A program made the translations under genes and the position numbers. The notes under the pieces are model-generated. The model was given only the letters and a program-made list of their open reading frames with translations, was not told where the DNA came from and searched no databases. 30,048 bases of DNA from Chiloscyllium plagiosum (lineage: Eukaryota): contig NC_057718.1 of NCBI RefSeq assembly GCF_004010195.1, positions 65,287,811-65,317,858 of the forward strand, in the 5' to 3' direction. Below, piece by piece: positions 1,056-28,099 of the stretch. Position 1 is the first letter of the stretch; every line of letters starts with the position of its first letter.

Positions 1056-1090
1056 ATCCTGAAGAAGGGCATGTGCCCGAAACGTCGAAT
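1056..1090 (+). ncRNA. Putative minimal type I hammerhead ribozyme core
   Basis: CTGAAGA-A-GGGC(ATGT)GCCC-GAAACGTC-GAAT: conserved CUGANGA and GAAA boxes, 4-bp stem II, GUC cleavage triplet. The 5' strand of stem I is partly truncated. Confidence 0.65.
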
Positions 1091-1151
1091 CTTCTGTTCC
1101 CTAGATGCTGCCTGACCTGCTGTGCTGTTCCAGCAATAAAGTTTCAGCATC
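1060..1151 (+). mobile_element. Short Penelope-like element terminal fragment with hammerhead core
   Basis: Flanked by 10-bp direct repeat GTGAGTATCC (1050-1059, 1152-1161). Contains GATGCTGCCTGACCTGCTGTGCTGTTCCAGC, which follows the GIY-YIG ORF in the longer PLE at 19123-20670. Confidence 0.85.
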
Positions 1152-2409
1152 GTGAGTATCCCTCTAATTTGCCTGTTCATCTATCTGTCTAAGTGCCTCT
1201 CAAACATTGTTATCGTCTCTGTTTCTACTACCTTTCCAGCACAGCTACCACCACTCCCTCCCCCCCAACTCCCCTTTGTAGAAAACATTCCTCACACATT
1301 ACCTTTACATTTTTCCCATCTCGCCTTAAACCTATGCCCCTGACTATTTGACATTTCTACTCTGGGTAAAAGACCTTATCCATGCCTCTCATTATTTTAC
1401 ATACTTGATTGCTCCTCGCCCACCTACAGTCTAGTGAAGACAATCCAAGTTTGCCCAAACTCTCCTTATAGCAAATATAGTCCAATCCCATCAGACTCTG
1501 AGGACTTACCTACCTTCGTGTTTTTTTAAGGTACCAACACCTCCTCCATCTTAACATGCCTCAAAATATCAACATAGCCCTCCTGCCCTCCCTAATCATC
1601 CATGTCCTTCTCCTTGGTGAGTACTGATGTAAAGTATTCATTAAGGACAACACCCACTTCCTCTAGCTCCATGTATGAATTCCTTCCTTTGTCCTGTGTG
1701 GACCTAGCTTTCCCTAGCTACCCTCCTTCTCCTAATATATGTATAAAATGTCTTGGATTCTCCCGAATTATTCTTGCCTAGGACATTTCATGGCCTCTTC
1801 TCGCCCTCCTAATTTCTTGTTTAAGCTATTTTCTGATTCCTTTATACTCTTAAAAAGCCTTGTTTGATTTTTGTTTCCTGAACTTTCATGTGCTTCCTTT
1901 TCCTTTTGACTAACCTTTCATTATCTCTGTTCATCCAAGGTTCCGAGTATTGCCATGCTGACGTTTCATCCTCACAGGAACATGCCAGTCCTGGACTCTG
2001 ATCAACTGTCCTTTAAAGGACTCCCACATGTCAGATGTGGATTTATTCTCAAACAACCAGCCCCAATCTAATTTCACCAGCTCCTGACTAATACTGTTGT
2101 CATTAGCCTTCTCCCAATTTCGCACGTATTCCAAGAACCTGTCCCATCCTTATCCATAACTGCCTTAAAACATACAGAATTATAATCACTGTACCCAAAA
2201 TGCTTCCCCACTGAAACTCCCATTACCTGGCCTGGCTCATTCTGCAATAAAAGGTTGAGGATGACCTTTTCCCTAGTTGGACTATCTACACCTTGTTACA
2301 AGAAACCCTGCTGGATGCACTTAGCCAATTCTGCCCCATCTAAGCGCCTGGCACTAAAGGGTTCCTAGTCAATATTGGGGAGTTAATTTCTCTCATTAAT
2401 TTCTTTCGG

Positions 2410-2548
2410 CAAAAAAACTGAAAGAACTGTGGATGCTGGAAATCTGAAACAAAAATAGTAATTGCTGGAAAATCTCAGCAAGTCTGCCAGAATCTGTGGA
2501 GGGAAATCAGAGTTAACGTTTCAGGTGCAGAGACCCTTCTTCAGAACT
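2410..2548 (-). mobile_element. Penelope-like terminal fragment (older family) with degenerate hammerhead core
   Basis: Reverse complement reads AGTT-CTGAAGA-AGGGTC...ACCT-GAAACGTT-AACT...TTCCAGCATCCACAG. Homologous to 5772-5895. Confidence 0.7.
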
Positions 2549-3622
2549 TGCTTTTACATCTTTCCTTCATGTAAATCCAAGGAATGGGGTGGGACCAGAC
2601 AGAGTACCAGGCCATGCACTCAGAGCATGTGCAGACTGGCATCTTCAACATCTCGGACATCTTCAATGTCTCCCTGCAGCAGGCCACTGTCCCTGCCTGT
2701 TTCAAGAGGGCCAACATCATCCCTGTGCCTAAGAAGGCTCATGCAGCATGTCTCAATGACTACCGCCCAGTGGCCCTAACTTCGGTGGTCATGAAGTGCT
2801 TTGAAAGGCTGGTCATGGCATTAATCAACCCCAGCCTCCCCACTACTCTTGACACACTTCAATTTGCCTATTGGACCAACAGATCAACGGCAGATGCCAT
2901 ATCACTTGCCCTTCAATCCTCCCTAGAATATCTGACACCAAGAACATCTATATAAGAATACTACTCATTAACGACAGTTCAGCTTTCAACACTATTATAC
3001 CCTTGAGACTGATTACAAAAATTATTGATCTCGGACTAAGCCCACTCTCTGCAACTGGATCCTCAGTTTCCTGACCCACAGGCCACAATCATTGAAGATT
3101 GGGGACAATATTTCATCCTCACTAACACTCAACACTGGAGCCTCCCACGGGTGTGTACTCAGCCCCCTTTGGTACTCACTATATATCCATGACTGCGTCG
3201 CCAAATACCAGACTAATGGCATTTATAAGTTCACTGATGACACCACCATAGTCGGTCAAATCCCAGATGGCAACGAAACGGACTACAGATGGGTGGTGGA
3301 AGACCTGGAAAAATGGTGCACTGAGAACAACCTAGCTCTCAATGCCAGCAAAATCAAGGACACATTATTGACTTTCAACAGGATGTTACTCATGCCCCCT
3401 CTACACATTAACAGCATAGAGGTAGAATGAGTAGAGAGTGTCAAGCTCCTGGGAGTGGTCATCAACAACAAGCTTTCTTGAACTGGTTACACTGGTGGAT
3501 GCACTGGTTACAAAAGCCCAACAACGTCTCTTCTTCCTCAGACAGCTGAGGAAATTTAGCATGATGGCGAATTCCCTTGCGGACTATTTATAGGAGCGTC
3601 ACCGAGAGCATTCTGTCCGAAT

Positions 3623-3829
3623 GTCTTCCCCCACCCTGACCTATCACCTCCATCCCCACCACCCATTCACTTTCACCCCAGCCCCACCCTCCTCTCATTT
3701 ATCTCTCCACCCTGCAGGCACTCTGCCTCATTCCTGATGAAGGGCTTTTGCCCGAAACGTCGATTTTCCTGCTCGTCGGATGCTGCCTGAACTGCTGTTC
3801 TTTTCCAGCACCACTCTAATCTAGAATCT
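3623..3829 (+). mobile_element. Penelope-like 3' terminal fragment inserted in the Rex1 RT
   Basis: C-rich UTR, hammerhead core and GATGCTGCCTGAACTGCTG...CCAGCACCACTCTAATCTAG. Homologous to 19150-19340 (-) and 20605-20669 (+). Rex1 sequence resumes after it. Confidence 0.85.
3730..3765 (+). ncRNA. Putative minimal type I hammerhead ribozyme core
   Basis: ATTC-CTGATGA-A-GGGC(TTTT)GCCC-GAAACGTC-GATT, with canonical CUGAUGA, GAAA and GUC. Confidence 0.7.
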
Positions 3830-4482
3830 GGGTGTACTACTACCTGATATAATAACTGTACCATTCAATATCGGAGATGGTTACAGTGTGGTGAACTCGG
3901 CCCAGGCAATCACAAAGGCCAACCTCCCATCTATAGAATCCATTTACCAGGCCCGCTGTCAAGAAAAGCCTGCCAGCATTCTCAAAGAACCATCCCACCC
4001 TGGCAATATTTTTCTACAAACTCTACCATCGGAGAAAAGGTACAGAAGCCTGAACACACGAGCCAGTTGGTTTTGTAACAGTTTCCACCTTACTGTTATT
4101 AGAATACTGAATGGACTCACAAACTCTTAACATTCGTCTGTACAGTGTACCTGTGTTTTTGTTTTTGCCACTGTTTGCCTATTATTTACTTATCTATGTT
4201 GTTTAACTCTGCGATCTGCCCGTATCGCTCACAAGACAAAGCTTTTCACTATGCCTCAGTACACGTGACACTATATTCAATTCAATTCAAATAAATACTG
4301 CTTCATCCAGCTTTGTGTTGTTACAGATCCAACATGTCCTTGATCTCAGAATATTCCCATTCGTCTCTCTTTATTCTACCAGTGACAATATATTGTCTTT
4401 GACCCGAAAGCAAATCAGAACACAATATTGTTGCCATGACAATATCAAACCAATAAGTAAAATACTTAGTAAAATTCTTCGT

Positions 4483-5213: not shown

Positions 5214-5254
5214 CTAATTACTTATGCAATTCACCCGATTAACTTCCTCCTAAC

Positions 5255-5565: not shown

Positions 5566-5574
5566 ATGTTGTAG

Positions 5575-5992
5575 AGTCATGTTAATATCACTGGACTAGT
5601 AATCCAGATACTCCAGACTAATATTCTGGGGACATTGACTCATATCCCACCATAGTAGAATGATTGATTGTTATAAAAATCATTCTGATTCATTAGTGCC
5701 CTTTAGGGAAGGAAATCTGTTGGCTTTATCTATAATACATTTAGAATGCATGTGAATCTACACGTATACTTTTTCCTAGCTACCATCAGTTCTGAGGAAG
5801 GGTCAGAGGAACCGAAACGTCAACTTTGACTTCTCTTCACAGATGCTGTCAGACCTGCTGAGCTTTTCCAGCAACTTTTGTTTTTATTCCAGATCTATAC
5901 TTGTCTTGGTGACTTTTAAATGATTGTCTGGGCAATTAGGAATGAGCAGAAAATTAGCCAGCTGCATCTAAAGCCACAAACAAATAAAATAT
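5575..5992 (+). mobile_element. Old tRNA-derived shark SINE, split by a PLE fragment
   Basis: Head ATCACTGGACTAGTAATCCAGA...TTCTGGGGAC...ATCCCACC, core CCCTTTAGGGAAGGAAATCTG, tail CTGGGCAATTAGGAATGAGCA. Recognised from recall of elasmobranch repeats. Confidence 0.55.
5772..5895 (+). mobile_element. Penelope-like terminal fragment with hammerhead core
   Basis: AGTT-CTGAGGA-AGGGTC(AGAG)GAACC-GAAACGTC-AACT then CAGATGCTGTCAGACCTGCTGAGCTTTTCCAGC. Possible 7-bp TSD TATACTT (5765-5771, 5896-5902). Confidence 0.75.
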
Positions 5993-6252: not shown

Positions 6253-6396
6253 CTATATACTTAATCGTAGGATCCTGGGAATGTTGCCGATCAAAGAGAC
6301 CTTCGGGTGCATGTTCATAGTTCCTTGAAGCTGGAGTATAAGGTAGACAGGGTAGTGAAGAAGGCACTTGGTATACTTGCCTTTGATGGTCAGTGC

Positions 6397-6574
6397 GGAG
6401 GAGAAAGTGAGGTCTGCAGACGCTGGAGATCAAAGCTGAAACTTTATTGCTGGAACAGCACAGCAGGTCAGGCAGCATCTAGGGAACAGAAGATTCGATG
6501 TGCCCGAAACGTCGAATCTTCTGTTCCCTAGATGCTGCCTGACCTGCTGTGCTGTTCCAGCAATAAAGTTTCAG
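6397..6574. mobile_element. Fold-back (palindromic) Penelope-like insertion
   Basis: Perfect 70-bp inverted repeat 6429-6498 / 6512-6581. Flanked by 16-bp direct repeat CTTTGATGGTCAGTGC (6381-6396, 6575-6590). Confidence 0.9.
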
Positions 6575-6626
6575 CTTTGATGGTCAGTGCATTGAGCATA
6601 GGAATTGGGATGTCATGTTGTGGTAG

Positions 6627-7308
6627 CGTTATGGCCCAGACCAAACAGCTTCAAAATATTCAAAAGATAGTCTAGCCCCGACTTTTTTCTGATTTTAAAG
6701 GTAAGTGTGAGGAATTGCATTCCAGATTAAATTCAATTAGTCAAAATACCGGATTATTCATCCGCTATAGTTAAAATGCAACAAAAGCAAGAAGGAATTG
6801 GAAAAACAACTTGATTGGAAAACTTTACAGAATAATAAATATAGTAACTATTGCTAATTAACTGTTCAGATATAGTAACATCCAATAAACACACCCTTGG
6901 CAAAAGGCAAATTCAGAAAACAGATTGGCTCACGTGCTACTCCAGTAGCAGGACGAGAATCCTAACCTTTGGCTGTAACTGAGTAGGGAAATGATAGCTT
7001 CCACTTCTTCAACAGCAAATGCTGAAAACTAAAAATTAAAAATCTGATAAAGAGTCATCTAGATTCTAAATGTTAGCTTGACGGATGCTGCTGACCTGCT
7101 GTGATTTCCAGCATTTTTTATTTTCATCTAAAAGTCCGGATTCTGTGAGAGCTTGGCCACACTCATTCTACTTTTTAAAAGAACCCAAGGACTCACAAGC
7201 TGTTTACTCTAGTGGCTGTGGTAGGTTGCTCACCACATCTGCCTTAGAATCTCTCTTACAAAAAAAGCCAGGGCAAAATACACCTCTTGAAGCCACAGTC
7301 TTGTCACA
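6627..7308 (-). mobile_element. Probable solo LTR
   Basis: Non-coding insert splitting the CR1. Ends read TGTGAC...TAACG on the minus strand (TG...CA with one substitution). Flanks GTAG/TTAG are consistent with a 4-bp TSD. Confidence 0.5.
7043..7127 (+). mobile_element. Decayed PLE terminal fragment inside the putative LTR
   Basis: CTGATAA-AGAGTC(ATCTA)GATTC-TAAATGTT...GGATGCTGCTGACCTGCTGTGATTTCCAGCA, homologous to 24665-24750. Confidence 0.6.
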
Positions 7309-11244: not shown

Positions 11245-13247
11245 TGGAGGGTAATCAGGAGGGCAAAAAGGGAACATGCGATAGCTTTGGCAAATAGAGT
11301 TAAGGAGAATCCAAAGTGTTTTTACAAATACATTTAGGTCAAATGGAAACTAAGGAGAGAATAGGGCACCTCAAAGATCAGCAAGACAGCCTTTGTGTGG
11401 AGCTGCAGAATATGGGGGAGATACTAAATGTGTATTTTGCATCAGTGTTTACTGTGAAAAAGGACATGGAAGATATAGAATGTAGGGAAATGGATGGGGA
11501 CATCTTGAAAAATGTCAATATTACAGAGGAGGAAGTGCTGGATGTCTTGAAATGCATACGAGTGGATAAATCCCCAGGACCTGATCAGGTGGGAAGCTAG
11601 AGAAGTGATTGTTGGGCCCTTTGCTAAGATATTTGTATCATCGATAGTCACAGATGAGGTGCCAGAAGACTGGAGGTTGGTTAACGTGGTGCCACTATTT
11701 AAGAAAGGTGGTAAGGCCAAGCCAGGGAATTATAGACTAGTGAGCCTGACGTCGGTGGTGGGCAAGTTGTTGGAGGGGATCTTGAGGGACAGGATGTACA
11801 TGCATTTGGAAAGGCAAGGACTGATTTGGGATAGTCAACATGGCTTTGTGAATGTGAAATCATTTCTCACAAACTTGATTGAGTTTTTTGAAGAAGTAAC
11901 AAAGAGGATTGATGAGGGCAGAGTGGTGGACATGATCTACATGGACTTCAGTAAGGCATTTAGCAAGGTTCCCCATGGGAGACTGATTAGCAAGGTTAGA
12001 TCTCATGGAATAGAGGGAAAACGAGCCATTTGGATACAGAACTGGCTCAAAGGTAGAAGACAGAGGGTGGTGGTGGAGAGTTGTTTTTCAGACTGGAGGC
12101 CTGTGATCAGTGGAATGCCACAAGGATTGGTGCCGGGTCCACTACATTTCGTCATTTAAATAAATGATCTGGATGTGAGCATAAGCGGTGTAGTTAGTAA
12201 GTTTGCAGATGACACCAAAATTGGGGGTGTAGTGGTCAGCGAAGAAGGTTACCTCAGATTACAACAGGATCTTGATCAGATGGGCCAATGGGCTGAGAAG
12301 TGGCAGATGGAGTTTAATTTCAATAAATGAGAGGTGCTGCATTTTTGGGAAAGCAGACCTTAGCAGGATTTTCACACTGGATGTAGATTTGCTCACTGAG
12401 CTGGAAGGTTCATTTTCAGACGTTTCATCACCGTACTGGGTAACAACTTCAGTGAACCTCCAGACGAAGCACTTCTGATGATTCCTGCTTTGTATTTATA
12501 TGTATGGGTAACATATAAGCAGAAAGCAGGAATCATCAGCAGTGCTTCGTCCGGAGGCTCACTGAAGATGTTACCCAGTACGGTGACGAAATGTCTGAAA
12601 ATGAACCTTTCAGCTCATCGAGCAACCTATATCCAGAACCTCAACCTGAGCTACAAATCTTCTCAAAACTCACGGACTTATACACTTAATGGTAAGGTCC
12701 TAGGGGGTGTTACTGAACAAAGAGACCTTGGAATGCAGGTTCATTGCTGCTTGAAAGTGGAGTTGCAAGTAGATAGGATAGTTAAGAAGGCGTTTGGTAT
12801 GCTTTCCTTTATTGGTCGGAGTATTGAGTACAGGAATTTGGAGGTCATGTTGCGGCTGTAGAGGACATTGGTTAGGCCACTGTTGGAATATTGCGTGCGA
12901 TTCTGGTCTCCTTCCCATCGGAAGGATGTTGTGAAACTTGGAAGGGTTCAGAAAAGATTTACAAGGATGCTGCCAGGGTTGGAGGATTTGAGCTACAGGG
13001 AGAGGTTGAATAGGCTGGGGCTATTTTCCCTGGAGTGTTGTAGGCTGAGGAGTGAACTTATAGAGGTTTATAAAATCATGAGGGGCATTGATAGGATAAG
13101 TAGACAAAGTCTCTTCCCTGGGGTGGGGGAGACCAGAACTTGAGGCATAGGTTTAGGATGAAATGGGAAAGATATAAAAGAGAAATAAGGGACAACTTTT
13201 TCACGGAGAGGGTGGTGCGTGTGTGGAATGAGCTGCCAGAGGAAGTG
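11245..13247 (+). mobile_element. CR1/HER1 LINE 3' half (reverse transcriptase), disrupted
   Basis: KSPGPD, VPEDWR..NVVPLFKKG, NYRLVSLTSVVGKLLE, SQHGF, IYMDFSKAF.KVPH, SGMPQGLV, KFADDTK (~12199-12219), RPLLEYCVRFWSP. Confidence 0.92.
12379..12673. mobile_element. Palindromic Penelope-like insertion (distinct family) with a hammerhead-like core in each arm
   Basis: Imperfect ~125-bp inverted repeat 12377-12503 / 12511-12636. Core CTGAAGA-T-GTTACC(CAGTAC)GGTGAC-GAAATGTC at 12562-12595 and its mirror at 12419-12452. Imperfect duplication GGATTTTCACACT / GGACTTATACACT at the flanks. Confidence 0.7.
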
Positions 13248-13263
13248 GGGTCTAGACTAGCGT

Positions 13264-13455
13264 GGAGAAAGTGAGGACTGCAGATGCTGGAGATCAGAGC
13301 TGAAAATGTGTTGCTGGAAAAGTGCAGCAGGTCAGGCAGCATCCAGGGAACAGGAGAATCAACGTTTCGGGCATAAGCCCTTCTTCAGGAATGAGGAAAG
13401 TGTGCCCAGCAGGCTAAGATAAAAGGTAGGGAGGAGGGACTTGGGGGAGGGGCGT
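13264..13455 (-). mobile_element. Penelope-like 3' terminal region running into the gap
   Basis: Reverse complement contains ATTC-CTGAAGA-A-GGGC(TTAT)GCCC-GAAACGTT-GATT (13357-13392) and ends CATCTGCAGTCCTCACTTTCTCC. Confidence 0.85.
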
Positions 13456-14421: not shown

Positions 14422-17400
14422 TACAGCGAGTCCCTTCGGACCTGGTCCATCTAGTGACCAACAGTTTCCCACACCAAGGGGAATGCAGGGAACCCCTAGA
14501 GGCAAGACTGTGAGTGAATAGACATTGGGTAATTCTATAAACTCTTAAAGTGGTGTTAGAATTACCAGTATTAACATGCATCAGGTTAAATCTACTGCGC
14601 CATATGTTTCCACGTTGGTTTACCTGCCCAATGCCAAAGCAGGTCTCCTGCGTCTGCAGGAATGGGGATACCATATTTTAGCAGGAAATGGTCAAGATTA
14701 CGGATTTGGTCAGGGGGAAATGATAGCCGCTTCTCTAGCCTGGGTATTCTGCTGCAAGGAGACAATTTCACTATCTCCAAAGTTGAGGCAGTAGGTGGAT
14801 GCCTCCTTGTAGCAGATGTTATGTATAGAAATGCTTTCCTGAGGATAATAAGCAAATATCTCCCAGTGATAAAGAGTGAGTGGCTGGCAGTCCCACTGCT
14901 GCTGGCAACCTTTAGGCCAGTCATTCTGGCCAGAGACTCGAACTGTATCATGGATGATCGGGAGGCGCTGACAGCGAAATGCATTTCACATCCAGATTCC
15001 TGGTGAAAAAGTTGCGAAACTGCACAAAATCTTCAGCACCCCTGCATACAGAGAGCAGCATAGATACGCTTGGTCAAGGCCAGACGGGTCGAACCATTCA
15101 AGGATTGATTTCCTATTTGCATCCCACACATTCTCGGTCAGATCCACCAATCAGATGTTCTTCTCCGACTACTGCCTCCTGCAGGTTGACTGTCAGGTAC
15201 AGGACGACCAGTGGCTGGCATGGAACGTGGCAACTAAACATGAAATAGTTGACCCAGAAAATTACACAAGTTGGAGAAACGTGAAGCCCTCTTTGAGTCT
15301 CCAGCAGACTGGTGGGAAACAGTCACGGGGAACAGCAAGAGGTTCTTCTTCCTCAAAGGTGTTCAGAAGGCAAGAAAGAGGCAGGCAAAACTGTCCAAAC
15401 TCCAGAAAAGCATGCAAAACCTTCTCCTGCTGCAGACGATGACGGTCAATGCCATGGAGGATCTCCAGGAAGTGAAGAGCTAACAAGCCTCACTCTTTGC
15501 CTCGGAGGTCTCCAAGATAACCTTCCGGCCCAGGGTCTGCACCATGGAGCAGGATGAAATGTGCTTGCGCTTCTTCTTCCAGAAGGTGTATAAGGAGAGC
15601 TCTGCAGCCTGAAGGAAGAGGGTGGCTCGACAACATCATCTCATTTTGACATACTGAGGATCAGCACATCCTTTTATGGCAATCTGTGTAACACAAAACC
15701 CCAGAGACAGTACGGCCTCCCAGTCATTCCTGTCCTCTACCACGGACATCTTAGGCGACAGCATGTGGGAGAGGCTGAACCAGCCATTATCTCTGGATGA
15801 GCTGATGAAGGCTCCCAAGTCATAGAGATGTACAGCATGGAAACAGACCCTTCAGTCCAACCCGTCCATGCTGACCAGATATCCCAACCCAATCTAGTCC
15901 CACCTGCCAGCACACGGCCCTTATCCCTCCAAACCCTTCCTATTCATATACCCATCCAAATGCCTCTTAAATGTTGCAATTGTACCAGCCTCCACCACAT
16001 CCTCTGGCAGCTCATTCCATACGCGTACCACCCTCTGTGTGAAAAAGTTGCCCCTTATTTCTCTTTTATATCTTTCCCATTTCATCCTAAACCTATGCCC
16101 TCTAGTTCTGGACTCCCCAATCCCAGGGAAAAGACTTTGTCTATTTATCCTATCCACGCCCCTCATAATTTTGTAAACCTCTATAAGGTCACCCCTCAGC
16201 CTCCAACGTTCCAGGGAAAACAGCCCCAGCCTGTTCAGCCTCTCCCTGTAGCTCAGATCCTCCAACCCTGGCAACATCCTTGTAAGTCTTTTCTGAACCC
16301 TTTCAAGTTTCACAACATCTTTCCGATAGAAAGGAGACCAGAATTGCACGCAATATTCCAACAGTAGCCTAACCAATGTCCTGTACAGCTGCAACATGAC
16401 CTCCCAACTCCTGTCAGTCCTTAGAAATGAATAAAACCCCCGGAAGCGATGACATACTGGCTGAGTTGTATTCAGCTCTGTGGGACTTGATTGGCCATGA
16501 CCTGCTGGAGGTGTACAACATTATGCTTCTGCTAGATACCATGTGCAAATCCATGCAGAAAGCTATCAGCTCTCTCATCTACAAGCGGAAGGGGGAGAGG
16601 GATGAAATTAGAAATTTGCAATCAATATCATTGCTGAATACAGTCTACAAAATTCTGTCTAAAATCATTGTCAAATGGATCAGATCTGCTCTTGGATTAG
16701 TGATTCACCCTGACCAAACCTGTGCTGTACCAGGCAGGATGATCTCTGAAAGCCTCTTGCTCCTCAGGAATATGATCGCCTATGTGCAGGACAGGGGAGT
16801 GGATGTCTGCCTCATCAGCCTGGACCAGGAGAAGGCCTTTGACACGATATTGCACATGTACATGTAGGACTTCCTCTCCAAAATGGGCTTCAGCAGGGAA
16901 TCTGCAAATTTGATCTGACTGCTCTACACCAACATCGTTAGCACAATCTCAATCAATGGCTAGGAATCGGAAAGCTTCCCGATCAGATGCAGAGTCAGGT
17001 AGGGCTACCAACTATCTCTTCCTTGTTTGCTGTAAAGAGCCCTATGCCGAATCCATGAGGAAGGATAGGAGCCTGAGATGGCTGACTATTCCAGACAGCG
17101 AAAGCCTGCAGGTCAAAACCTCCCTGTGCATGGATTACGTTGCCGTTCTCTGCTTGGATCCACTGTCAATGCACAGACACATGAGCATCTGTGACCAGTT
17201 TGAACTGGCCTTCGAAGCCAAGGTAAATCCTGGCAAGAGTGAGGCCATGTTCTTTGGGAACTGGACCGACCAATCTTTCATTCCTTTCACCATCATGATA
17301 GATCAGCTGGAGATGCTGGTAATATGGCTCAGAGGGGTCGGGGCATGCACAAAACCCCTGGAGAAGAGCATTACCAAAGTGAAGCAGAAACTGGTCTTTT

Positions 17401-18667
17401 GGGAGCACTGTTCCCTCTCCATTGTGATTAAAAACATAGTCATCAGGTGTGAGGCACTCTCTCTGCTGTTGTACATGATGCCTGGTCATGTCTGACCCAG
17501 CAGTCACAACTGCACTGTTTTAGTCACCCAAACCATTTTCCATTTCATCTGGAAGCCCAAGATAGACCAGGTCTCCATGTACAAAACTCTGGATAAAGAG
17601 GTGAAGAACATACCACCGTTGCCTTCATCCTTATGGCCACTTTTGTGTGTGGCTGCATCAAGCTGTGCATGGATCCCCGGTACACAGACACCAAGTGTTG
17701 CTACTTTCTGAGGTTCTACCTGTCCCTGGTATTGCAAAAGATGGGACTGGCCTCATTGCCACAGAATGATCCAGGTAGTTGGATAATTCCACATCGCCTG
17801 TCCTTCACACAGAAATTTGTGAAAATAAACACCTTTGACTATGTCCATCAGGAAGTGGTCAGCACGTGGCATCCTCAAGATCCTGAGGGAAAAGGAGATG
17901 GTGGAAACTGTTGTATGGTTCCCTGGGCAGGCTGTCAAAGTCATTTGGCAGAATGCCTCATCACCAGATCTTTCCAACAAGCACCATCACTTGGCTGGTG
18001 GCGAGAAGGGCACTACCTGAGATCCTTCATGTACGCCCAGCCAGTCAGCACCACTGCACACTGCCCTTGAAGTGGCTGCGGTGGAGAAGGGTTGAGACTG
18101 TCACACATCTCCTTCTGGAATGTGCCTTTGCAAAGGAAGTCTGGAGAAAGATGCAATGGTTTGTTTTGAGGTTCATCCTTAGCGGATCTGTGACATGGAA
18201 CTCTGTGCTTTACAGTCACACACCGAGACAAACATCAGCTGCACCTGGAGGACCATCAAATCCGTGACAGATGTTCTTTGGTCTGCCCAAAACTTGTTGA
18301 TCTTCCAGAACGAGGAGTTTACCTCAAACGAGTAATGCAGACAGGCACATTTCAAGGTCCAGGACTGTGTGCTGAGGAATGCACTAAAACTTAGGATAGC
18401 TGCCGACAAGGCACAGTGCAACTCAAGACCACTGCCTGAGGTATTCCTCCTGAAGGTAAATGGGAGTATCATTCCTTTCAGTTATTGGAACATCCCAGCA
18501 TCTCAAATTGTATGTGTAAAAGAGGTCTTTGGTGTTTTGAATAGAGTTAAAGTCCAATGTTTTGTTAGTTTACCTGATATGCAGCTGTACGGATCTGAAT
18601 TTCATTTGTGATAATGTACATATACAAAGATTGTTTTAATGAATAGGGTATATTTTTGAAATAAAAA
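14422..18667 (+). mobile_element. Tx1/L1-clade LINE, degenerate ORF2 (APE-RT-zinc finger) with A-rich 3' end
   Basis: APE: ITSINM, LLRLQE, WSGGND...LGILL, FSDYCLL. RT: NKTPGSD, ISLLNTVYKILSK, IHPDQTCAVPGR, ISLDQEKAFD, CMDYV. C-terminal CP...ETVTHLLLECAFAKEVW. Ends GAAATAAAAAA. Confidence 0.85.
15822..16415 (-). mobile_element. Young 5'-truncated CR1/HER1 inserted in the Tx1 ORF2
   Basis: Open 158-aa frame (LYRTLVRLLLEYCVQFWSP...VWNELP). AGTC on both sides (15818-15821, 16416-16419). Excision restores Tx1 ELMKAPKSLEMNKTPG. Confidence 0.92.
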
Positions 18668-19034: not shown

Positions 19035-19122
19035 CAGCTTGGCTCAATTCAGTCTGACTATCAAGTGCAGGAGGTATATACTACATTCAGAAAAGAGCAG
19101 CTCTTCAGATGAGTCTTAAATG
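19035..19122 (+). mobile_element. Decayed Deu-domain SINE (SacSINE1/AmnSINE-like), 5' part
   Basis: GTGCAG...CTTCAGATGAGTCTTAAA resembles the Deu core (TTTCGGATGAGACGTTAAA). Continues at 20671 after a PLE insertion. Confidence 0.4.
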
Positions 19123-20670
19123 GAGTGGGAGAACGTGAGGACTGCAGATGAGTCTAGATTGGAGTAGTGCTGGAAAGGCACAGCAGGTCAGGCCGCATCC
19201 AAGGAGCAGGAAAATCAACGTTTCGGGTAAAAGCCCTCATCAGGAATGAGGCAGGGAGCCTCTGGAGTGGAGAGATAAATGGGAGGGGGGTGGGGTTGGG
19301 GAGAAGGTAGCTAAGAGTACAATAGGTGGATGGAGGTGGTAGTTTAGATTACTTACAGTGTGGAAACAGGCCCTTCAGCCCAACAAGTCCACACCGACCC
19401 GCCAAAGCGCAACCCACCCAGACCCATTCCCCTACACCTAACACTACCGGCAATTTAGCATGGCCAATTCACCTAACCTGCACATTTTTTGATTGTGGGA
19501 GGAAACCCACGCAAACACGGGGAGAATGTGCAAACTCCACACAGAGAGTCACTTGAGGCGGGAATTGAACCCGGGTCTCTGGCACTGTGAGGCAGCAGTG
19601 CTAACCACTGTGCCACCATGCTGCCAGATGTGGATGAGATGCATTGGAGGGCATCTTCAACCAAATGGGAAGGGACATTATGGTCTTTAAAGAAGGAGGC
19701 CATCTGGTGTGTTCTGTGATGGAACTGGTCCTCCTGGGAGCAGATACGGCAGAGGCGGAGGAATTGGGAATAGGGGATGGCATTTTTGGAGGAGGTAGGG
19801 TGGGAAGAGGTATAATCCAGATAGCTGTGGGAGTTGGTGGGTTTGTAAAAAATGTCAGTGTTAAGTCGGTCGTCATTAATGGAGATGGAGAGGTCCAGGA
19901 AGGGGAGGGAGGTGTCCCTCCAATTGCAACAAGGACAGAACCCCCCTGGTCCTCACCTTCCATCCTACCAACCTCCGCATAAACTGTATCATCTGCCGAC
20001 ATTCTGCCACCTCCAAATGGACTCTACCACCAGGGATATATTTCCCTCCCCACCCTTATTCACTTTCTGCAAAGACCGTACCCTCTGTGACTACCTGGTC
20101 AGGTCCACGCCCCCCCCCTCAACAACCCACCCTCCCATCCTTCCCCTGCCAATGCACGAATTGCAAAACCTGCACCCACACCTCGCCCCTCACCTCCATC
20201 CATGGCCCCAAAGGAGCCTTCCACGTCCATCAAAGTTTCACCTGCACATTCACCAATGTCATTTATTGTATCCATTGCTTCTGATGCGGTCTCCTTTACA
20301 TTGGGGAGACTGGACACCTTCTCGCAGAGCGCTTTAGGAAACATTTCTGGGATATATGCACCAATCAACCCCACCGCCCCGTGGCTGAACATTTCAACAC
20401 CCCCTCCCACTCTGCTGAGGACATGCAGGTCCTGAGCCTCCTTCACCATTGGATACCTAGAGGAAGAACGCCTCATCTTCCGCCTCGGAACACTTCAACC
20501 CCAGGGCATCAATGTGGACTTTACCAGTTTCTTCATTTCCCCTCTCCCCGACTTACCCCAGTTTCAACCTGCCAGCTCAGCACCATCCTTGTGACCTGTC
20601 CTACGATTTTCCTGCTCCTCGGATGCTGCCTCATCTGCTGTGCTTTTCCAGCACCACTCTAATCTAGACA
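19123..20670. mobile_element. Rearranged Penelope-like element: inverted terminal region and RT C-terminus (-), linker plus GIY-YIG and 3' end (+)
   Basis: Minus 19626-19915: DIFYKPTNSHSYLDYTSSHP...AIPYSQFLRLCRICS. Plus 19915-20540: CQCTNCKTC...FTCTFTNVIYCIHC..CGLLYIGET...ERFRKH...EERLIFRLGTLQPQGINVDF. 8-bp TSD CTTAAATG (19115-19122, 20671-20678). Confidence 0.9.
19343..19625 (-). mobile_element. HE1-type SINE nested in the PLE
   Basis: Reverse complement begins GGCAGCATGGTGGCACAGTGGTTAGCACTGCTGCCTCACAG...GGGTTCAATTCCC (A and B boxes) and ends GAAGGGCCTGTTTCCACACTGTAAGTAATCTAA. Confidence 0.9.
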
Positions 20671-20810
20671 CTTAAATGAAGTGCCAGCCTATTTATACTG
20701 ACAATTTCCAGTATGTTAATGATCACAGGACACTATGTGAGGCATGACATGAAGCCCTTCTAGTGCTGGCCAGCATTTCCCCATCAGCCAATATATATTA
20801 TTTGTTCATT
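20671..20810 (+). mobile_element. Decayed Deu-domain SINE, 3' part
   Basis: GTTAATGATCACAGGACACTAT...GTGCTGGCCAGCATTTCCCCATCAGCCAA resembles the Deu core continuation. Confidence 0.35.
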
Positions 20811-21689: not shown

Positions 21690-23005
21690 GCATGTTATGA
21701 ACCCACCATTCTCCATTTTGTGTTTCCCTGTGTGGTTAATTCAGCGTTCAAGACACTACACGTTCATCATTCTTAACAAGTTCGCATGGTCACCCTCCCA
21801 TGCAATTGCGAAAGGTGTAAAACCATTCACCTTGTTCCTCCTCACTGTTAAAGGCCCTAAACTTATCGTCCAGGTAAAGTAGCTTTTATTTCTTTCAATC
21901 TCATCTTCAGTAATTGCAGTTCACAATGTGGTCTCATTTACACTGGCGACACCAGACACAGTCTGGGTGATAGCTTTGCAGAACACCTCTCTACTCTATA
22001 CATAATAGCTCTGACCTTTCAGCTGCTTGACATTTCAATAAACCATTTTTCTCTGAGGCAAGTATTTCCAGCTTGGGCTTGCTGCAATGTTCCAGCGAAG
22101 CTCAGCAAGCAGGAGGAATGACACATCATTTTCAGTTTTGACATTTTATGGTTTCGAGGACTCAATGTTGAATTCCACAATGTGGAAACATAGAAAACAG
22201 GAGCAGCAGTAGGCCATTCAGCCCTTGGGCCTGCTCTGCCATGCAATATGATATAGCTGATCATCCAACTCAGTTTCCCGTTCCAGGTTTCGCACCATAT
22301 CCTCTGACCCCTTTAGCCCTTAGAACTGTATCTAACTCCTTTGTGAAAAGATTTAATGGTTTGGCCTCAACATTTTCTGTGTCCAAGAATTCCACAGGCC
22401 CATCACTCTCTAGGTGAAGAAATTGTCTTCATTTAATTCCTAAATGGCCTTTCCTGTATCATTAGACTGACCGCTGGTTCTGAACTCCCCAGTCATCAAG
22501 AACATGTTGTCTATGTTTAAGTCTTAAAGGAGTCTGGAGAAGGTGAAATGTATACATTGCCCTCCTAACCTGGAAGTAGAGACATTACTACAGTGCCACA
22601 ACTTCAGAGCATTACTTCTGTCCTTTATTTTGCTTGCATACACACCATTCGCCCCTCTTCAATGCAGTGTCTTGGCTTGGTCTGAACAGAGCAGATCCAG
22701 TTTCTTCTTAACACACCTTGATTTACATTCATTTTACTTATCTATCTTTCCTTTACCATCATTAACACTGCCTCTGTCATTTTCTCTGGGCATCCTCATC
22801 ATCTGTTTCATTTGCTGCTCATCCCCCTCTGTCAACTTATAACACCACTATCTTCCAGCTTCTTTCAGTTCTGAAGAAGAGTGATATTTGACTCAAAACT
22901 TTATTTTTGTTCATTTTTTCCACAGAAGCTGTCAGACTTACTGTGTTGCTACAACACTTCTTATTTTTATTTCAGATTTCCAGCATACATGTTATTTTAC
23001 TTTTC
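21690..23005 (+). mobile_element. Old Penelope-like element (decayed GIY-YIG plus 3' UTR) split by a CR1 insertion
   Basis: PCNCERCKT (~21800), SQCGLIYTGDTRHSLGDSFAEHL (~21920-21990) and GLNVEF (~22158-22175) parallel 20145-20520. The UTR resumes at ~22595 with degenerate core CTGAAGA-AGAGTG...GACTC (22871). Confidence 0.7.
22185..22520 (-). mobile_element. CR1 3' end fragment (different family)
   Basis: AAACATAGAAAACAGGAGCAGCAGTAGGCCATTCAGCCC tail and UTR, plus GAATTCCACAGG...CTCTAGGTGAAGAAATT (F.QRV..LWN on the minus strand). Confidence 0.75.
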
Positions 23006-23534
23006 GTAGCATTTCATTTCTCCTGCTGCCCGATCTCTGACATATGTAGAGAACATGTCATTGTGTGAGTTGAAAAGGAAGCCACTTGGCAGCATGTATG
23101 TGCACGATACTCTCCAGAACGAGGCTATTGAAATTTCTGCTGAAGCTTACGTATCGTGTAAAACCATATAGGCAAAGAAGACATAAAGGCTGGAAATTAC
23201 AGTGAGCAGTTGCTGCTGAATACTCAAAATCCATTACTCCACATTGATAACAAAGGTCCTAACTTGTTCATTTCAAAAACGGCGACAACATCTCCTCAAA
23301 AATGGAGAAAGGCTTTTGATAAAGTATGTTCAGCGTTTGCTCAACAGATCCAGTTCTAGCAAAAACTTATTGGATTGATTATTGGATCAAATGGTTGGTA
23401 TGCATGCATTCTAGTCCCTCAAATCTCAACATAGGATACTAAACTACTATCACATCATTTGAAAACAATAGTAACGTTGACTTTGAGAACAAACTTGTTT
23501 CATATACTATAAACCAAACAACTCAGAAAGTTTG

Positions 23535-24790
23535 AACTGAAACAAAAAACGCTGGAGATCACAGCGGGGGAGGCAGTATTCATGGATAGAAAACAAGCTA
23601 ATGTTTCAAGTCTACATGACTCTTCATCAGAGCTGAAGTGAAATGTGGAGGGGGCAGCATTCATTAATAGTGGCAGGGGGTGTTGAACTGCTGGGGGAGA
23701 CAGGATGTTGATGGTTCAGATTTAGTTGGGAGAGGCTGAATAGACTGGGACTATTTTCGCTGGAGGGTCGGAGTATGGAATGGAATGCCATAGAAAGTGT
23801 TGAAGGCTGGTACAATTTGAATAGGAAGGGTTTAGAGGGATATGGGCCAAATGCTAGCAAATGGGACTAGATTAATTTAGGAAATCTGTTTAGCATGATC
23901 AAGTTGGACCAAAGGGTCTGTTTCCATGCTGTACAGCTCTATGACTCTAAGCAATTGGAATGTGAGAATAGCAGAACAATGGTATGTCTAACTGCCCTAT
24001 TCATATACCATCCAGATGTCTTTTAAATGTTGTAACTGTACCAGCCTCCACCATGTCTACTGACAGCTCATTCCATACACCCACCACCCTCTGTGTGAAA
24101 AAGTTGTCCCTGAGGTCCCTTTTAAATCTTTCCCCTTTTACCTTAAATCTGTGCCCTCTAGCTTTGGACTTGCCCATCACTGGGGAAAAGGCCTTGGCTA
24201 TTCCCTCTATTCATGCCCCTCGTGATTTTATAAACCTCTATAAGGTATTCATATACCATCCAGATGTCTTTTAAATGTTGTAACTGTACCAGCCTCCACC
24301 ATGTCTACTGACAGCTCATTCCATACACCCCACCACCCTCTGTGTGAAAAAGTTGTCCCTGAGGTCCCTTTTAAATCTTTCCCATTTTACCTTAAATCTG
24401 TGCCCTCTAGCTTTGGACTTGCCCACCACTGGGGAAAAGGCCTTGGCTATTCCCTCTATTCATGCCCCTCGTGATTTTATAAACCTCTATAAGGTCATTC
24501 CTCAGCCTCCAATGCTCCAGTGAAAATAGCCCCAGCCTGTTCATCCTCTCTCTACTTAATCTGAACTATCAACTTCCTTTCTCCACCAGCACATTTAAAC
24601 CCCACCCCACCCCCACACCCATTGCATAAATGCTGCTCCCTCCACACTTCACTTCACTTCAGTTCTGATGAAGAGACATCTTGACTTGCCTTCTCTCCTC
24701 TCCATGGATGCTGCCTGAATTGCTGTGATCCCCAGCACTTTTTGTTTTCAGTTCAGATTCTGGCATCTGCTGTAATTTGCTCTGAATTTG
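23535..24790. mobile_element. Inverted-repeat PLE/CR1 composite
   Basis: PLE arms 23535-23725 (-) and 24554-24783 (+) enclose CR1 pieces 23726-23950 (+) and 23998-24553 (-). 9-bp direct repeat GAAAGTTTG at 23526-23534 and 24791-24799. Confidence 0.75.
23998..24494. repeat. Near-perfect tandem duplication, unit 248-249 bp, within a CR1 fragment
   Basis: Copies 23998-24245 and 24246-24494 differ by 2 substitutions and 1 C insertion. Confidence 0.95.
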
Positions 24791-24949
24791 GAAAGTTTGC
24801 ATGATTAATTACAAGTGTGGGCTGTGATAGCTGACCTCAACCAGCACAATAGATGTGACAAAATTGAATTCCATTCTCCGAGTAAAGGGAAGTAAATTGC
24901 CAAGGACTCCCACTGCTGGTTACTTTGTAGCAATTTCTGCTGAAGTATC

Positions 24950-25089
24950 ATGGAGTCATTGAGTCATACAGCATTGAACAGACCCTTCAATCCAACAAGA
25001 CCATGCCAAACCTAGTCCCAAAATAATCCAGTTGCACCTGCCTGCTCCCGGCTCATATCTCTCCAAACTCTTACTATCATGTATCTCCA
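24950..25089 (-). mobile_element. CR1/HER1 3' UTR fragment
   Basis: GAGTCATTGAGTCATACAGCATTGAACAGACCCTTCAATCCAAC tail and UTR. Confidence 0.8.
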
Positions 25090-25369
25090 CATATAAACAA
25101 TGAAGAAGACACTAGGCACAGCTTGGATTCCTCCAGGATCAATTGGTTAGTCCACTCTGTGTGTCTAGGATCATACGTAAAGAACATCACTTGGCTGGTG
25201 ATGATAATGGTCCAGGCAGTGACCACTTTCCCTTGTTCTGCCCCCAGTCAAAGTAGAGTCACCTTCCATTTTCAGCTTTGATGATGGGACTTCAGATGTC
25301 TTGGCAAAACTTCGAATGTCTCAGAAAATGGAGTTTTTGTCCTAAATCTTCTTATTATTTATTGTTATC

Positions 25370-26420
25370 ACTATTTATTATTTGGGATATCATTTCTGAA
25401 GATCCAACTCTAGTGTTTAGGCTATGCTCTTGGTCATAGATGCACCATTTAAGCAAAAGCAGTTTCTTTCTACTGGCCTATCTGTTCCCCTTAATACTTT
25501 GGAAAAGTAATCCAAATCAGCATATACCTGTAAATCACAAGAAATACTACCCTTATTGGAATTTAACTCTTGTAGTCAAAGTATAATTTTGTTAAATTTA
25601 GTTACAGTCCTTTGAAGGCTAGTATATCCGAATAGTGTGGTGCCCAGAATTGCTCATAGTATTCCAAGAATAGTCAACCAGAACTTTGTTCAGCTAAAGC
25701 ATAATTCCTTTGAAATAAAGATCAGCATTCCAAGAGCCTTATTGATTATTTCCTGCATAATTCTTTAATAAGCGAGGCAACTGGACTCCCAAGTGTCTGT
25801 GGATCTCCATTATATCCATCACTTCATTATTTAGGAATTATCCTTTTGTAACCTTTTAGATTTAAAGTAAATAATCTCATACCTTCCTTCCTTGGAATCA
25901 ATTGGCACACATGGAGCCTGCCTGTTGCTGCATAGCCATGCAGCTTTGGGGGAACATTGGTATTCAGTACTTGAGTCCCAAGTTCACAAGATTTAGTCAC
26001 ATTTGTCAGGTATGATCTATCTTTACTAATCTATGCTGGCTGTCTCTGGTCAGCTGAAGAATTTCAATGTGCCAAGTTACTCTATCCTTAAGGATAATCT
26101 ATCGCAAATTCCCAACAACCAGTGTTGCTGATGCATTATCCACTTTCTTAGACAACACAGTGGCATCTCAAGTTTACAATCTAAATGAAACTTTGGAAAA
26201 TGAACTTGTAGGCAACTGCAATGTTTTTGTGTTCTTCCTTTAAAATTTTATGATGGAACCATTTGGTGCTGGAGACTTGGCCCTCTTTGGTGATATTATT
26301 TTCTTTGTGACTGTTATTTTGCTTATGTTAATTTTGTAAGTTCCTGCTTCAGTAATAGTTTCTTTGGGAGTCTGACATGCTGATTTCTTCCTCTGTTGTA
26401 AATATTGGCACAAAGGATGA
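25370..26420 (-). mobile_element. Ancient, highly decayed CR1 ORF2 fragment
   Basis: Collinear remnants GGTGCCCAGAATTGCTCATAGTATTCCAAG (LEY..QFWAP), AAAGATCAGCATTCC, GGACTCCCAAG, ATCTATGCTGGCT (SQHG-like), CCATTTGGTGCTGGAGACTT (KSP.P.G), TTCCTCTGTTGTAAATA. Confidence 0.55.
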
Positions 26421-27057
26421 GATTTGCATGAGTCAGTTCAAGTCAACATTGTGGTGGCAAATAATGTCACCAATATCTGCACCCATTTTCAACCCTGCAG
26501 ATTTCCATGAGTAGGGTACAGTAAGAGATAAGGCAGTAAAATAGAGTTGCATTGTATATTGGGTACATTAAAATGATTAAACAACTCCTAAGCAGCTCAC
26601 TCTTTGAGGTAATGAAATATTTGCAGTGGCAGACGGCAGTGCGGACTGTGTAAAGTCAAATTGCTCCATCCTGTGGGATCAGGTCTATAGTAAGAAAAAA
26701 TGTCTTTGTTTGCCTGGGAAAAGTACAAACTTTGAAGAAAATCAATTACACAACTGTGAAATTTTACTGATACTAACATTGCCCTTACCTTATCCCAGGT
26801 CCCAGCTTTCTATTTGTCCTGACCAGAAGATGCAAATACTTTAATGTTTGAACAAGGAAACTCACACTCAGGTAGCAGCTACAACAATGAGGGCAAGGGA
26901 TTGGGCCCGGAGGGCACAGTGTGGCAAGTGGGAAGCAGCAAGAGGGTAATGAAGAACAATGTATACACAATAATGGTATCAGTTGCGGAGGCATCTATCC
27001 ATACTCCAACAGGCAGAATTAGGACTAAACTCGTTCCTGGTCCAAATTCCTGGTCCA

Positions 27058-27181
27058 TTCTAATGAAGGGCTTATGCCGAAACGTCGATTCTCTTGCTCT
27101 TGGGAAGTTACCTGATCTGCTGTGCTTTTCCAGCACCACACACTCGATTCTGATCTCCAGCATCTGCAGTCCTCACTTTCC
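27058..27181 (+). mobile_element. Penelope-like terminal fragment with mutated hammerhead core
   Basis: TT-CTAATGA-AGGGCTTATGCC-GAAACGTC-GATT...CAGCATCTGCAGTCCTCACTTTC. Flanked by CCTGGTCCA (27036-27044, 27049-27057, 27182-27190). Confidence 0.85.
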
Positions 27182-27768
27182 CCTGGTCCAATTTACTATC
27201 AGGATTTAGTGAATCCACACTGCCTTGACCTTGACTCTTTTTCTCTTGCGTGGCAGGACGGGTGGGGGGTCATATTTCAAATTTTCTGTCACTCAGAAGC
27301 CAGCGAGAAAATTTCAGAAAGATAAGGCTGGCCACAACAGTAATTTCAAAAGAAGGCGTACATGTTCCCAGTGCAATCATTCAGCGTTGTGACCTAGAGT
27401 CGTTGGTACAAATGACTCCCCGACATCAATTGAATCCTGCTTCTTTCCCAGCTCCGATTCACGGCCTCGTAATAGTTTCTTCCTCTCAACCTCTGAAATA
27501 TCTCTCACAGTGTAACGCTGGCGAGTGGTGACTGATTATCCTGAGAATCATTCACAAGTGAACTCAGATGGTGCAGCAAATTCTGTCAGTGGGTCGTGGG
27601 GTTTGTGTGGTGAAACCTGGCAAAGAATTCATGTTTTAAAATTTATTTTGTCAGTAAAGTAGTTAAACAGTTGTCGGAATTTTGGTTTCCTGAATCTCCT
27701 GATAAGTTTCAAACACCTCTGTAATCAGTTTGAGCATAACACCCCGAAACCGTGTATGCAAGTATTGT

Positions 27769-27782
27769 GCTCCACCTAGTGG
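27769..27782 (-). promoter_or_regulatory. CTCF-like motif
   Basis: Minus strand CCACTAGGTGGAGC matches 13/14 of the CCASYAGRKGGCRS core, in CpG-retaining unique sequence. Confidence 0.5.
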
Positions 27783-27976
27783 CGGCATTGACTTCAAACG
27801 TAGCCTTTGAAGAAAGACCAAAGCAATAAATTGAGATTTTAGATAAATAAGTACTTAGTACAATGACCATTAAAATATGCCAAGCAGCAGAACCAACTAA
27901 TAAAACCTCATTTTGCTTTCTCAGATGAGATGTAAAGCAAGGAAGTGATAGGAGATGATATGGAGATGTCGGTATT

Positions 27977-28099
27977 GGATTGGGGTAAACAGAAGTCACA
28001 CCGACGGGTTATAGTCCAAGAGGTTTTGTTTAAAATCACAAGCTTTCCAAGCGCTGTATTTTCATTACCTGATGATAGAATCTGATGTCATGTGACTTC
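27977..28099. mobile_element. Decayed palindromic PLE-derived element (further family)
   Basis: GAAGTCACA (27992) and its inverse TGTGACTTC (28091) bracket GGTTATAGTCCAA...ATCACAAGCTTTC...ACCTGATGA. Recognised by recall of a shark PLE terminal repeat. Confidence 0.55.

What the first reader, a model, noticed from the sequence alone, without database searches (positions are those of the whole stretch)
1056..28070. Dispersed minimal hammerhead ribozyme cores from several Penelope-like families, with visible covariation
Seen: at least 13 CTGANGA-stem-GAAAC motifs. Intact cores: 1059(+), 3734(+), 5792(+), 13388(-), 19243(-). Degenerate or partial: 2544(-), 6499, 7044, 12452(-)/12562(+), 22871, 23630(-), 24665, 27060. 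The core is constant while stems change in compensating pairs. Stem II: GGGC/GCCC, GTTACC/GGTGAC, GAGTC/GACTT. Stem I: AGTT/AACT (5788, 2545), TCA/TGA (12559), AGCT/AGCT (23631), ATTC/GAAT or GATT. Established: PLE terminal repeats carry minimal type I hammerheads with a tiny, partly palindromic helix III (GAAACGUC) thought to cleave as dimers. Inference: this genome hosts several ribozyme-bearing PLE families and short derivatives at roughly one per 2-3 kb, possibly including non-autonomous retrozyme-like families not yet characterised in sharks.
Basis: partly seen in the sequence, partly recalled or inferred. Interest (0 to 1): 0.75.

Follow-up and report, generated by a model that had tools for sequence, protein, structure and literature searches.

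The report
Shark Penelope stubs carrying hammerhead motifs
These self-cutting-RNA (hammerhead) motifs are real but of a known kind: they sit in short, decaying end-pieces of four families of Penelope-like jumping genes, and in three families most pieces begin at the motif's first letters, which likely marks where the element's RNA starts.

Summary
All 14 listed positions are real. They are minimal type I hammerheads in terminal repeats (pLTRs) of Penelope-like elements (PLEs), as described in 2014. Seven pass a strict descriptor against 0.06-0.09 expected, and the stems covary. Sampling 1.16 Mb elsewhere gave 99 descriptor hits and 375 pLTR pieces, or about 290,000 and 1.1 million genome-wide by extrapolation. 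Four lineages each trace to a GIY-YIG-type ORF end. Only 8 of 216 cores have a tandem neighbour, so retrozyme-like families are not supported.

ORF-bearing copies do the same (6 of 14). The likely cause is an RNA that starts at the ribozyme. Microhomology joining remains a live rival, because the extra G was templated in all 11 cases inspected.

This scan has noted the motifs and the pile-up before, on this and other shark genomes. Cleavage is untested.

The parts
1057..1148 (+). Lineage A1 pLTR stub; core 1059-1086, predicted cut after 1086; 5' end inside stem I; 10-bp target duplication at 1050-1059 and 1152-1161
   Evidence: sequence
2413..2548 (-). Lineage B stub with tail; intact core from 2544; 5' end at the first base of stem I
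3631..3831 (+). Lineage A3 3'UTR plus pLTR piece, core 3734-3761, inserted in an unrelated LINE RT remnant (2575-4130)
5768..5897 (+). Lineage B stub; core boxes intact from 5792, stem II broken at pair 3
6399..6581 (.). Lineage A1 inverted pair: long arm 6501-6399(-) with tail, short arm 6499-6581(+); neither has the full core; 16-bp target duplication at 6381-6396 and 6575-6590
7043..7124 (+). Decayed lineage B stub starting at the CTGA box
12377..12671 (.). Lineage C (Poseidon-like) inverted pair: short arm 12509-12377(-), long arm 12510-12671(+) with core from 12562 and an ATG at A9; inserted in a LINE remnant
13267..13455 (-). Lineage A2 copy with tail; intact core from 13388; its 5' part runs into the assembly gap
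19115..20683 (.). One rearranged lineage A insertion between 13-bp near-identical duplications (19115-19127, 20671-20683): arm 19328-19150(-) with core at 19243, a SINE-like insert, RT piece 19916-19560(-), linker and GIY-YIG piece 19916-20522(+), and a last piece 20604-20668(+) that starts at the predicted cut site
22818..23004 (+). Old lineage B copy, core decayed (22871)
23508..23636 (-). Lineage B variant (stem I AGCT/AGCT), core boxes intact from 23630; 5' end just before stem I
24605..24777 (+). Old A/B-type copy; CTGA box at 24665, GAAA half deleted
27056..27180 (+). Lineage A2 stub with tail, core damaged (27060); 5' end at stem I
27955..28073 (-).

Best explanation
The motifs are minimal type I hammerheads in the terminal repeats of four ORF-linked Penelope-like retrotransposon lineages, left as short decaying insertions, and in three lineages most insertions begin at the first bases of the ribozyme, likely because the element's RNA starts there. 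Shown: the motif, its covariation, its place after the endonuclease ORF end and before the ORF start, two fixed 3' ends about 30-40 nt apart, inverted pairs, and the 5' pile-up. Inferred: a promoter in the upstream repeat starts transcription at about the first base of stem I. The reverse transcriptase would prime internally at one of two sites about 60 and 95 nt past the cut site, as shown in vitro for the anole element. Priming on the front copy of these sites would run off the RNA 5' end after about 95-130 nt. Two such cDNAs, one on each target strand, would join into the inverted pairs. The ribozyme is predicted to cut after GUC/GUU/CUA only as a dimer or with protein help, and the dispersed copies are likely inert. 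Odds: PLE origin about 0.95; RNA start as the cause of the pile-up about 0.55.
For: Descriptor excess. Stem I was not in the descriptor, yet 73% of pairs 1-3 are Watson-Crick in 90 copies, against 37% shuffled (maximum 46% in 2000 shuffles). On 10 representatives of lineages A-C, 95% of 60 cells pair, 5 of 6 pairs change on both sides, and 0 of 500 shuffles reach the score.

ORF links: L235 has a 725-residue open frame with RT, CX4CxxC linker and GIY-YIG, 51% identical to an 889-residue relative, with the ribozyme 366 nt beyond it. B, C and D upstream regions match PLE endonuclease ends. The ribozyme also precedes the ORF start.

3' ends are bimodal, and 58 of 72 inverted pairs have one long and one short arm (P 8e-8).

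5' ends per 100 nt at risk in the 12-nt window at the ribozyme edge: A 7.6 (71 ends), B 10.2 (26), D 7.0 (26), against 0.6-1.3 in the flanking zones. This holds in solo copies (5.4) and young copies (6.8). Flanks are unrelated, and target duplications occur in 8 of 55 edge copies against 7 of 400 mismatched pairs. Genome-wide, 6,999 of 30,393 exact A2 cores keep 10 upstream bases (23%), against 3,088 of 3,987 (77%) for lineage C2. 22 of 30 inspected A2 loci end within 6 nt of the core. 6 of 14 resolvable ORF-start copies also begin there. TATAAA lies 29 nt before the B peak and 30 nt before one D peak. The base before ATTC is G 2,926, A 1,413, T 543 times; one base further in it is G 696, T 1,722.
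Against: No cleavage or start site was observed. Laid reads cover both strands about equally, with no place where many molecules begin (library not suited).

The G excess is not shown to be untemplated: all 11 G cases inspected lay beside an inverted arm (8) or inside the target duplication (3), and 11 of 17 solo copies had the reference C. Of 8 solo copies ending exactly at the A, 1 had G. 1,854 of the 2,926 G cases are preceded by G or A, as an inverted arm would give.

Lineage A has only a weak TATA-like stretch (5-6 of 8). Lineage C has a perfect TATA box but no pile-up downstream of it. About two thirds of copies stop at the edge both in short and in ORF-start copies (6 of 9 that reach it), which a simple stop site would also give. 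The peak is about 12 nt wide. Exact-match ratios are sensitive to subfamily variants: my downstream control gave 14% because I chose a minority variant (3 of 30 against 22 of 30). Long copies are under-assembled (gaps).
Confidence: 0.65

Rival explanations
1. The pile-up is not an RNA start. Reverse transcription stalls or cDNA ends are joined by microhomology at the palindrome-rich 5' half of the ribozyme, for instance where it is paired in a dimer or bound by protein.
For: Stop rate is higher in inverted arms (11-20 per 100 nt) than in solo copies (4-8). Junction bases, the G included, are often templated by an arm or the target. The stop fraction is similar in short and ORF-start copies. 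The TATA match is weak in A.
Against: Solo copies show the peak too. A structure should stop the enzyme at its 3' edge, which it meets first, not after it is unwound (inference). Lineage C has a stronger stem II and no peak. TATA spacing fits in B and partly in D.
Confidence: 0.3
2. Copy ends record ribozyme cleavage in vivo: the cut RNA's 3' product is reverse transcribed to its 5'-OH end.
For: In lineage A, 16 ends fall in the 8-nt window round the cut (1.3 per 100 nt) against 0.33 just downstream (P 7e-6). Window piece 20604 and the inverted arm of L264 begin at the cut.
Against: The excess is not significant against the core interior (P 0.10). It is absent in C and in solo D, and the site is a palindrome that favours microhomology. 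It cannot explain the main peak 32 nt upstream. In the anole element, ribozyme mutants did not change insertion in vitro and no reads ended at the cut (PMC11167929).
Confidence: 0.2
3. The short copies are self-propagating non-autonomous retrozyme or SINE-like families.
For: Most copies are 90-140 nt with similar ends. One 43-nt-spaced tandem dimer was seen at L012. Retrozymes derive from pLTRs and occur in one chondrichthyan (10.64898/2026.07.22.740005).
Against: 8 of 216 cores are in tandem within 1 kb. There are no shared upstream flanks, the 5' ends are heterogeneous, every lineage links to an ORF, and the same 5' end occurs on ORF-bearing copies.
Confidence: 0.07
4. The dispersed ribozyme copies are kept by selection for a host function.
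For: Non-CpG mismatch is lower in the core (85 of 1753, 4.8%) than downstream (448 of 5487, 8.2%).
Against: That gap is expected from subfamily differences against one reference. CpG decay is the same in core and flank, and only 109 of 216 core-spanning copies keep all 11 core bases.
Confidence: 0.03

Closest known systems
[quoted passage not shown]
   Same: Same core, extra base between 9 and 10.1, G10.1 closing pair, palindromic 15.2-16.2, short helix I; mostly single dispersed motifs in several consensus families.
   Different: Copy number here is about 290,000 by extrapolation, against about 4,000 (coelacanth) and 9,000 (Xenopus) there, with a different descriptor. Sharks are not named in the parts read, and no 5' end pile-up is reported there.
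Neptune-type endonuclease-positive PLEs (PMC8557442, PMC3846280; passages read)
   Same: Single RT plus C-terminal GIY-YIG ORF, Cys-rich linker (CX4CxxC in A and D), pLTRs, inverted 5'-truncated arm, optional 30-40 nt tail, target duplications.
   Different: Clade not tested by a tree. About half of the A, B and D pieces are stubs of little more than ribozyme plus priming region.
Poseidon element of the green anole, PAc (Frangieh et al. 2024, PMC11167929; parts 1-2 of 4 read)
   Same: Lineage C has an ATG at the start of stem II, with the cut 28 nt on (26 in PAc), and long 3' ends 105-110 nt past the ATG (111-118 in PAc). Two 3' ends and extension on both strands fit the long/short inverted pairs.
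   Different: In lineage A the RT-linked frame starts about 140 nt past the cut. PAc priming, cleavage and protein dependence are measured; nothing is measured here.
Non-LTR retrozymes (bioRxiv 10.64898/2026.07.22.740005; parts 1-3 of 5 read, supplements not seen)
   Same: Type I hammerhead, derived from pLTRs, many monomers.
   Different: Defined by tandem units each with a ribozyme. The window has none, and the sample has 8 of 216.

Membership tests
Metazoan minimal type I hammerhead | CUGANGA, GAAA and UH core around stem II | tested here: met
   7 window hits against 0.06-0.09; 99 sample hits against 4
Metazoan minimal type I hammerhead | Extra base at 9/10.1 and G at 10.1 paired with C or U | tested here: met
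   90 of 90 lineage-assigned copies; the lineage rule used that first base, so partly circular
Metazoan minimal type I hammerhead | Palindromic 15.2-16.2 in place of helix III | tested here: met
   CG in A and C (and in the B majority sequence), with TG/CA decay; GC in 16 of 16 D
Metazoan minimal type I hammerhead | Short covarying helix I | tested here: met
   73% against 37% shuffled; 3 of 3 pairs change on both sides; A2 and A3 carry a U-U mismatch at pair 3
Metazoan minimal type I hammerhead | Self-cleavage, as dimer or protein-assisted | not testable with these tools
   Minimum-energy folds give the hammerhead arrangement as a monomer only for A1 and B1; no assay
Endonuclease-positive PLE | One ORF with RT and C-terminal GIY-YIG | tested here: met
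   L235 open frame of 725 residues; Pfam RVT_1 and a weak GIY-YIG hit in its relative P0009; for B, C and D only the endonuclease end was seen
Endonuclease-positive PLE | Ribozyme-bearing repeat after the ORF and before its start | tested here: met
   after; before; lineage A only
Endonuclease-positive PLE | Inverted truncated arm, optional 30-40 nt tail, target duplication | tested here: met
   142 of 333 usable pieces are inverted arms; 58 of 72 pairs long+short; four duplications in the window
Neptune/Nematis clades | CX2-5CxxC linker between RT and endonuclease | tested here: met
   A (L060, L235, L057) and D (L229); decayed in the one B copy read
Neptune or Poseidon clade | Placement in an RT tree with named references | not tested
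   No named reference set was fetched; lineage C as Poseidon-like rests on the ATG position and a recalled endonuclease pattern
Non-LTR retrozyme | Tandem units each with a ribozyme | tested here: not met
   8 of 216 with a same-strand neighbour within 1 kb; none in the window
Non-LTR retrozyme | Circular RNA | not testable with these tools
   One contig joint going back 132 nt in X1 could be a genomic tandem

The most novel reading that the evidence does not exclude
In Neptune-type shark PLEs the 5' strand of hammerhead stem I doubles as the transcription initiator, so the ribozyme is the capped first 32-34 nt of the RNA. Internal priming near the RNA's front end then makes hundreds of thousands of run-off stubs, a genomic record of the RNA start, the two priming sites and, faintly, the cut.
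Probability: 0.5. Interest if true: 0.6.

Novelty: new member of a known kind. Interest (0 to 1): 0.36.

Why it matters
The motif class is known. What adds value is scale and end geometry. About a million pieces let the two priming sites measured in vitro for one lizard element be read from a genome. The 5' pile-up gives a precise prediction for an open question, what the PLE hammerhead is for: if it is the first 32 nt of a capped RNA, cleavage would decap the transcript rather than only cut tandem precursors. One CAGE or 5' RACE experiment would test this. The scan has already noted the same pattern on other DNA, so this window adds controls more than a first sighting.

Tried and rejected
Rfam: no hammerhead family among 12 matches at E up to 10; the miRNA hits are the inverted PLE pairs. 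Long 'open frames' were mostly N gaps; one real 725-residue frame was found among 36 loci fetched. My first A2 and B1 references were faulty and were rebuilt; no B2 reference was made, so old B2 copies are under-counted. The first 12-row alignment misplaced lineage D by one column, so the two D rows were dropped before the pair count. The downstream exact-match control is uninformative (minority variant). A shared exon or unknown subfamily upstream of the edge was rejected: no homology among flanks. RNA: no RNA holder listed. Laid reads from X20 show both strands and no start sites, and X21 laid nothing; the loose-end peak at 1542 is confounded by the A2 subfamily. The CTGATGA at 28069(+) matches no lineage as a core and is treated as chance. 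The dimer-cleavage paper PMC5785218 is not held; only its title was seen in a reference list. No covariance model or R-scape run was made.
Full report
Setting. The window lies on contig C9 of a 3.56-Gb genome. The nearest named relatives of its PLE protein are from Chiloscyllium (83-88%) and Stegostoma (60%), so the host is inferred to be a carpet shark. The window is largely LINE and SINE debris.

Observation. All 14 listed positions are terminal-repeat pieces, and three more were found. A strict descriptor finds 7 in the window against 0.06-0.09 in Markov resamples. Several labels need changing: 5792 has a broken stem II, 1059 a truncated stem I, and 2544, 12562 and 23630 keep their core boxes. 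Rfam reports no hammerhead. In 120 position-chosen 10-kb segments of chromosome-scale contigs (1,155,970 non-N bases) there are 99 descriptor hits, 4 in the reversed control, and 375 pieces by homology. Scaled to about 3.4 Gb this is about 290,000 and 1.1 million. One exact 32-mer occurs 30,393 times and another 15,500 times, with 0 for the reversed patterns.

Structure. Hits fall into four lineages: A 50, B 9, C 15, D 16, other 6 of 96 distinct. Stem I pairs change together: GAA/UUC (A1), AAC/GUU and AGC/GCU (B), UGA/UCA, UGC/GCA and UGG/CCA (C), GUG/CAC and GUA/UAC (D). A2 and A3 have a U-U mismatch at pair 3. The palindrome is CG in A-C and GC in D. Stem I was not in the descriptor, yet 73% of pairs 1-3 are Watson-Crick, against 37% after shuffling. 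On 10 representatives (D dropped for misalignment) 95% of cells pair and 0 of 500 shuffles reach the covariation score; slid registers give 22-43%. Related rows inflate such controls. These traits match the min-HHR of PMC4209133. Within lineages copies decay: 109 of 216 keep all 11 core bases, and CpG change is 24% in the core and 26% downstream.

Origin. Lineage A follows an RT, CX4CxxC linker and GIY-YIG frame: L235 has 725 open codons, 51% identical to a full-length relative, with the ribozyme 366 nt beyond. Among 16 loci fetched for the endonuclease, 7 had a same-strand A ribozyme about 430-630 nt past it. The ribozyme also lies before the ORF start. B upstream regions match PLE endonuclease ends (5 of 36 copies; E to 1e-42). 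C runs into a different endonuclease end (28 of 47 copies) and has an ATG at stem II as in the anole element. D is linked by one locus, L229 (E 3e-11, with a CX4CxxC linker). First-look candidates for A and C endonuclease pieces number 71,303 and 72,874. Tandem cores are rare (8 of 216) and short copies share no upstream flank, so retrozyme-like families are not supported.

3' ends. Each lineage has two 3' ends: about +55-68 and +87-103 from the cut in A, B and D, and +38-42 and +77-82 in C. 142 of 333 usable pieces are arms of inverted pairs, and 58 of 72 pairs join a long and a short arm. This is the known tail (PMC8557442, PMC3846280). It fits two internal priming sites and extension on both target strands, shown in vitro for PAc (PMC11167929). 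The window pairs at 6399-6581 and 12377-12671 are examples.

5' ends. These pile up in a 12-nt window at the ribozyme's 5' edge: 71 of 190 A, 26 of 61 B and 26 of 65 D pieces, at 7-10 per 100 nt at risk against 0.6-1.3 on either side; C has 2 of 41. The window was set after seeing the histogram. The peak holds for solo and for young copies. Target duplications flank 8 of 55 edge copies, against 7 of 400 mismatched pairs. Genome-wide, 59% of exact A2 cores keep 4 upstream bases and 23% keep 10, against 77% for C2. Such ratios are sensitive to variants, but 22 of 30 inspected loci are truly cut short. Of 30 loci with the ORF start, 14 had a resolvable repeat and 6 of these begin in the same window; 14 were truncated inside or just before the ORF start and 2 ran into gaps.

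Mechanism. The simplest reading is that the RNA starts at about the first base of stem I. The A and B sequences there fit a pyrimidine-A initiator pattern (consensus recalled, not scored). TATAAA lies 29 nt before the B peak and 30 nt before one D peak (lead). G is over-represented just before the first base (2,926 G, 1,413 A, 543 T) and not one base further in (696 G, 1,722 T). An extra G marks capped full-length LINE-1 insertions (PMC11702581, passage). Against this: the 11 G junctions inspected were all explicable by an arm or the target, 1 of 8 solo copies ending at the A had G, A has only a weak TATA-like stretch, and C has TATA without a peak. A stop or microhomology hot spot remains possible. 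In D. virilis the promoter is internal and an intron ends at helix I (PMC2377424 part 2 of 4; PMC4209133), so the layout differs among PLEs. A small excess at the cut in A (16 ends) is significant against downstream but not against the core interior. RNA data were uninformative.

Novelty. Seven literature searches found the PLE hammerhead papers. They found none that describes shark PLE hammerheads in detail or this 5' pile-up; 'shark' with Penelope and hammerhead ribozyme gave one paper, where the word refers to the animal's head. Subscription papers, PMC5785218 and all supplements were not seen and may list shark motifs. The 2026 preprint reports retrozymes in one chondrichthyan. Papers were read as stated under Closest known systems; PMC6155905 and PMC6765202 as passages. 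The scan index lists 1,054 notes with these words in at least 37 genomes, several with the same pile-up, extra G and TATA idea (unreviewed). My look-up came after the pile-up and G counts and is not independent support.

Verdict. Real, and a new member of a known kind. Interest 0.36, carried by the testable RNA-start reading.

Noticed in passing
L012:855-998 (G000:C1 about 20,010,900): A natural tandem of two intact A2 cores 43 nt apart on one strand, next to an inverted arm: a ready-made dimer for a cleavage assay.
   Followed up: no
window:20604-20668: After the endonuclease and part of the 3'UTR, the copy jumps straight to the predicted cut site, dropping the ribozyme.
   Followed up: partly
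window:3797-3827 and L001-L010: A common A3 variant has an in-frame TAG in the short frame that starts at the ATG 18 nt past the cut; the RT-linked frame seems to start further on.
   Followed up: no
L235:5830-6070: Young A1 inverted pair with a 14-bp target duplication whose arm ends exactly at the predicted cut, joined through the stem I complementarity.
   Followed up: partly
window:232-524 and 19340-19625: Copies of an abundant SINE-like repeat (resembles the elasmobranch HE1 SINE, name recalled); one sits inside the PLE insertion.
   Followed up: no
window:2575-4130, 11270-13248, 14590-18450, 28980-30048: Remnants of several LINE families (RVT_1 hits), two interrupted by PLE pieces.
   Followed up: no
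window:24019-24495: A 248-249 nt direct duplication (99% over 167 nt) inside a LINE remnant.
   Followed up: no
window:13456-14421: 966-base assembly gap that starts in the C-rich 3'UTR of a PLE copy; such gaps interrupt most long copies fetched.
   Followed up: partly
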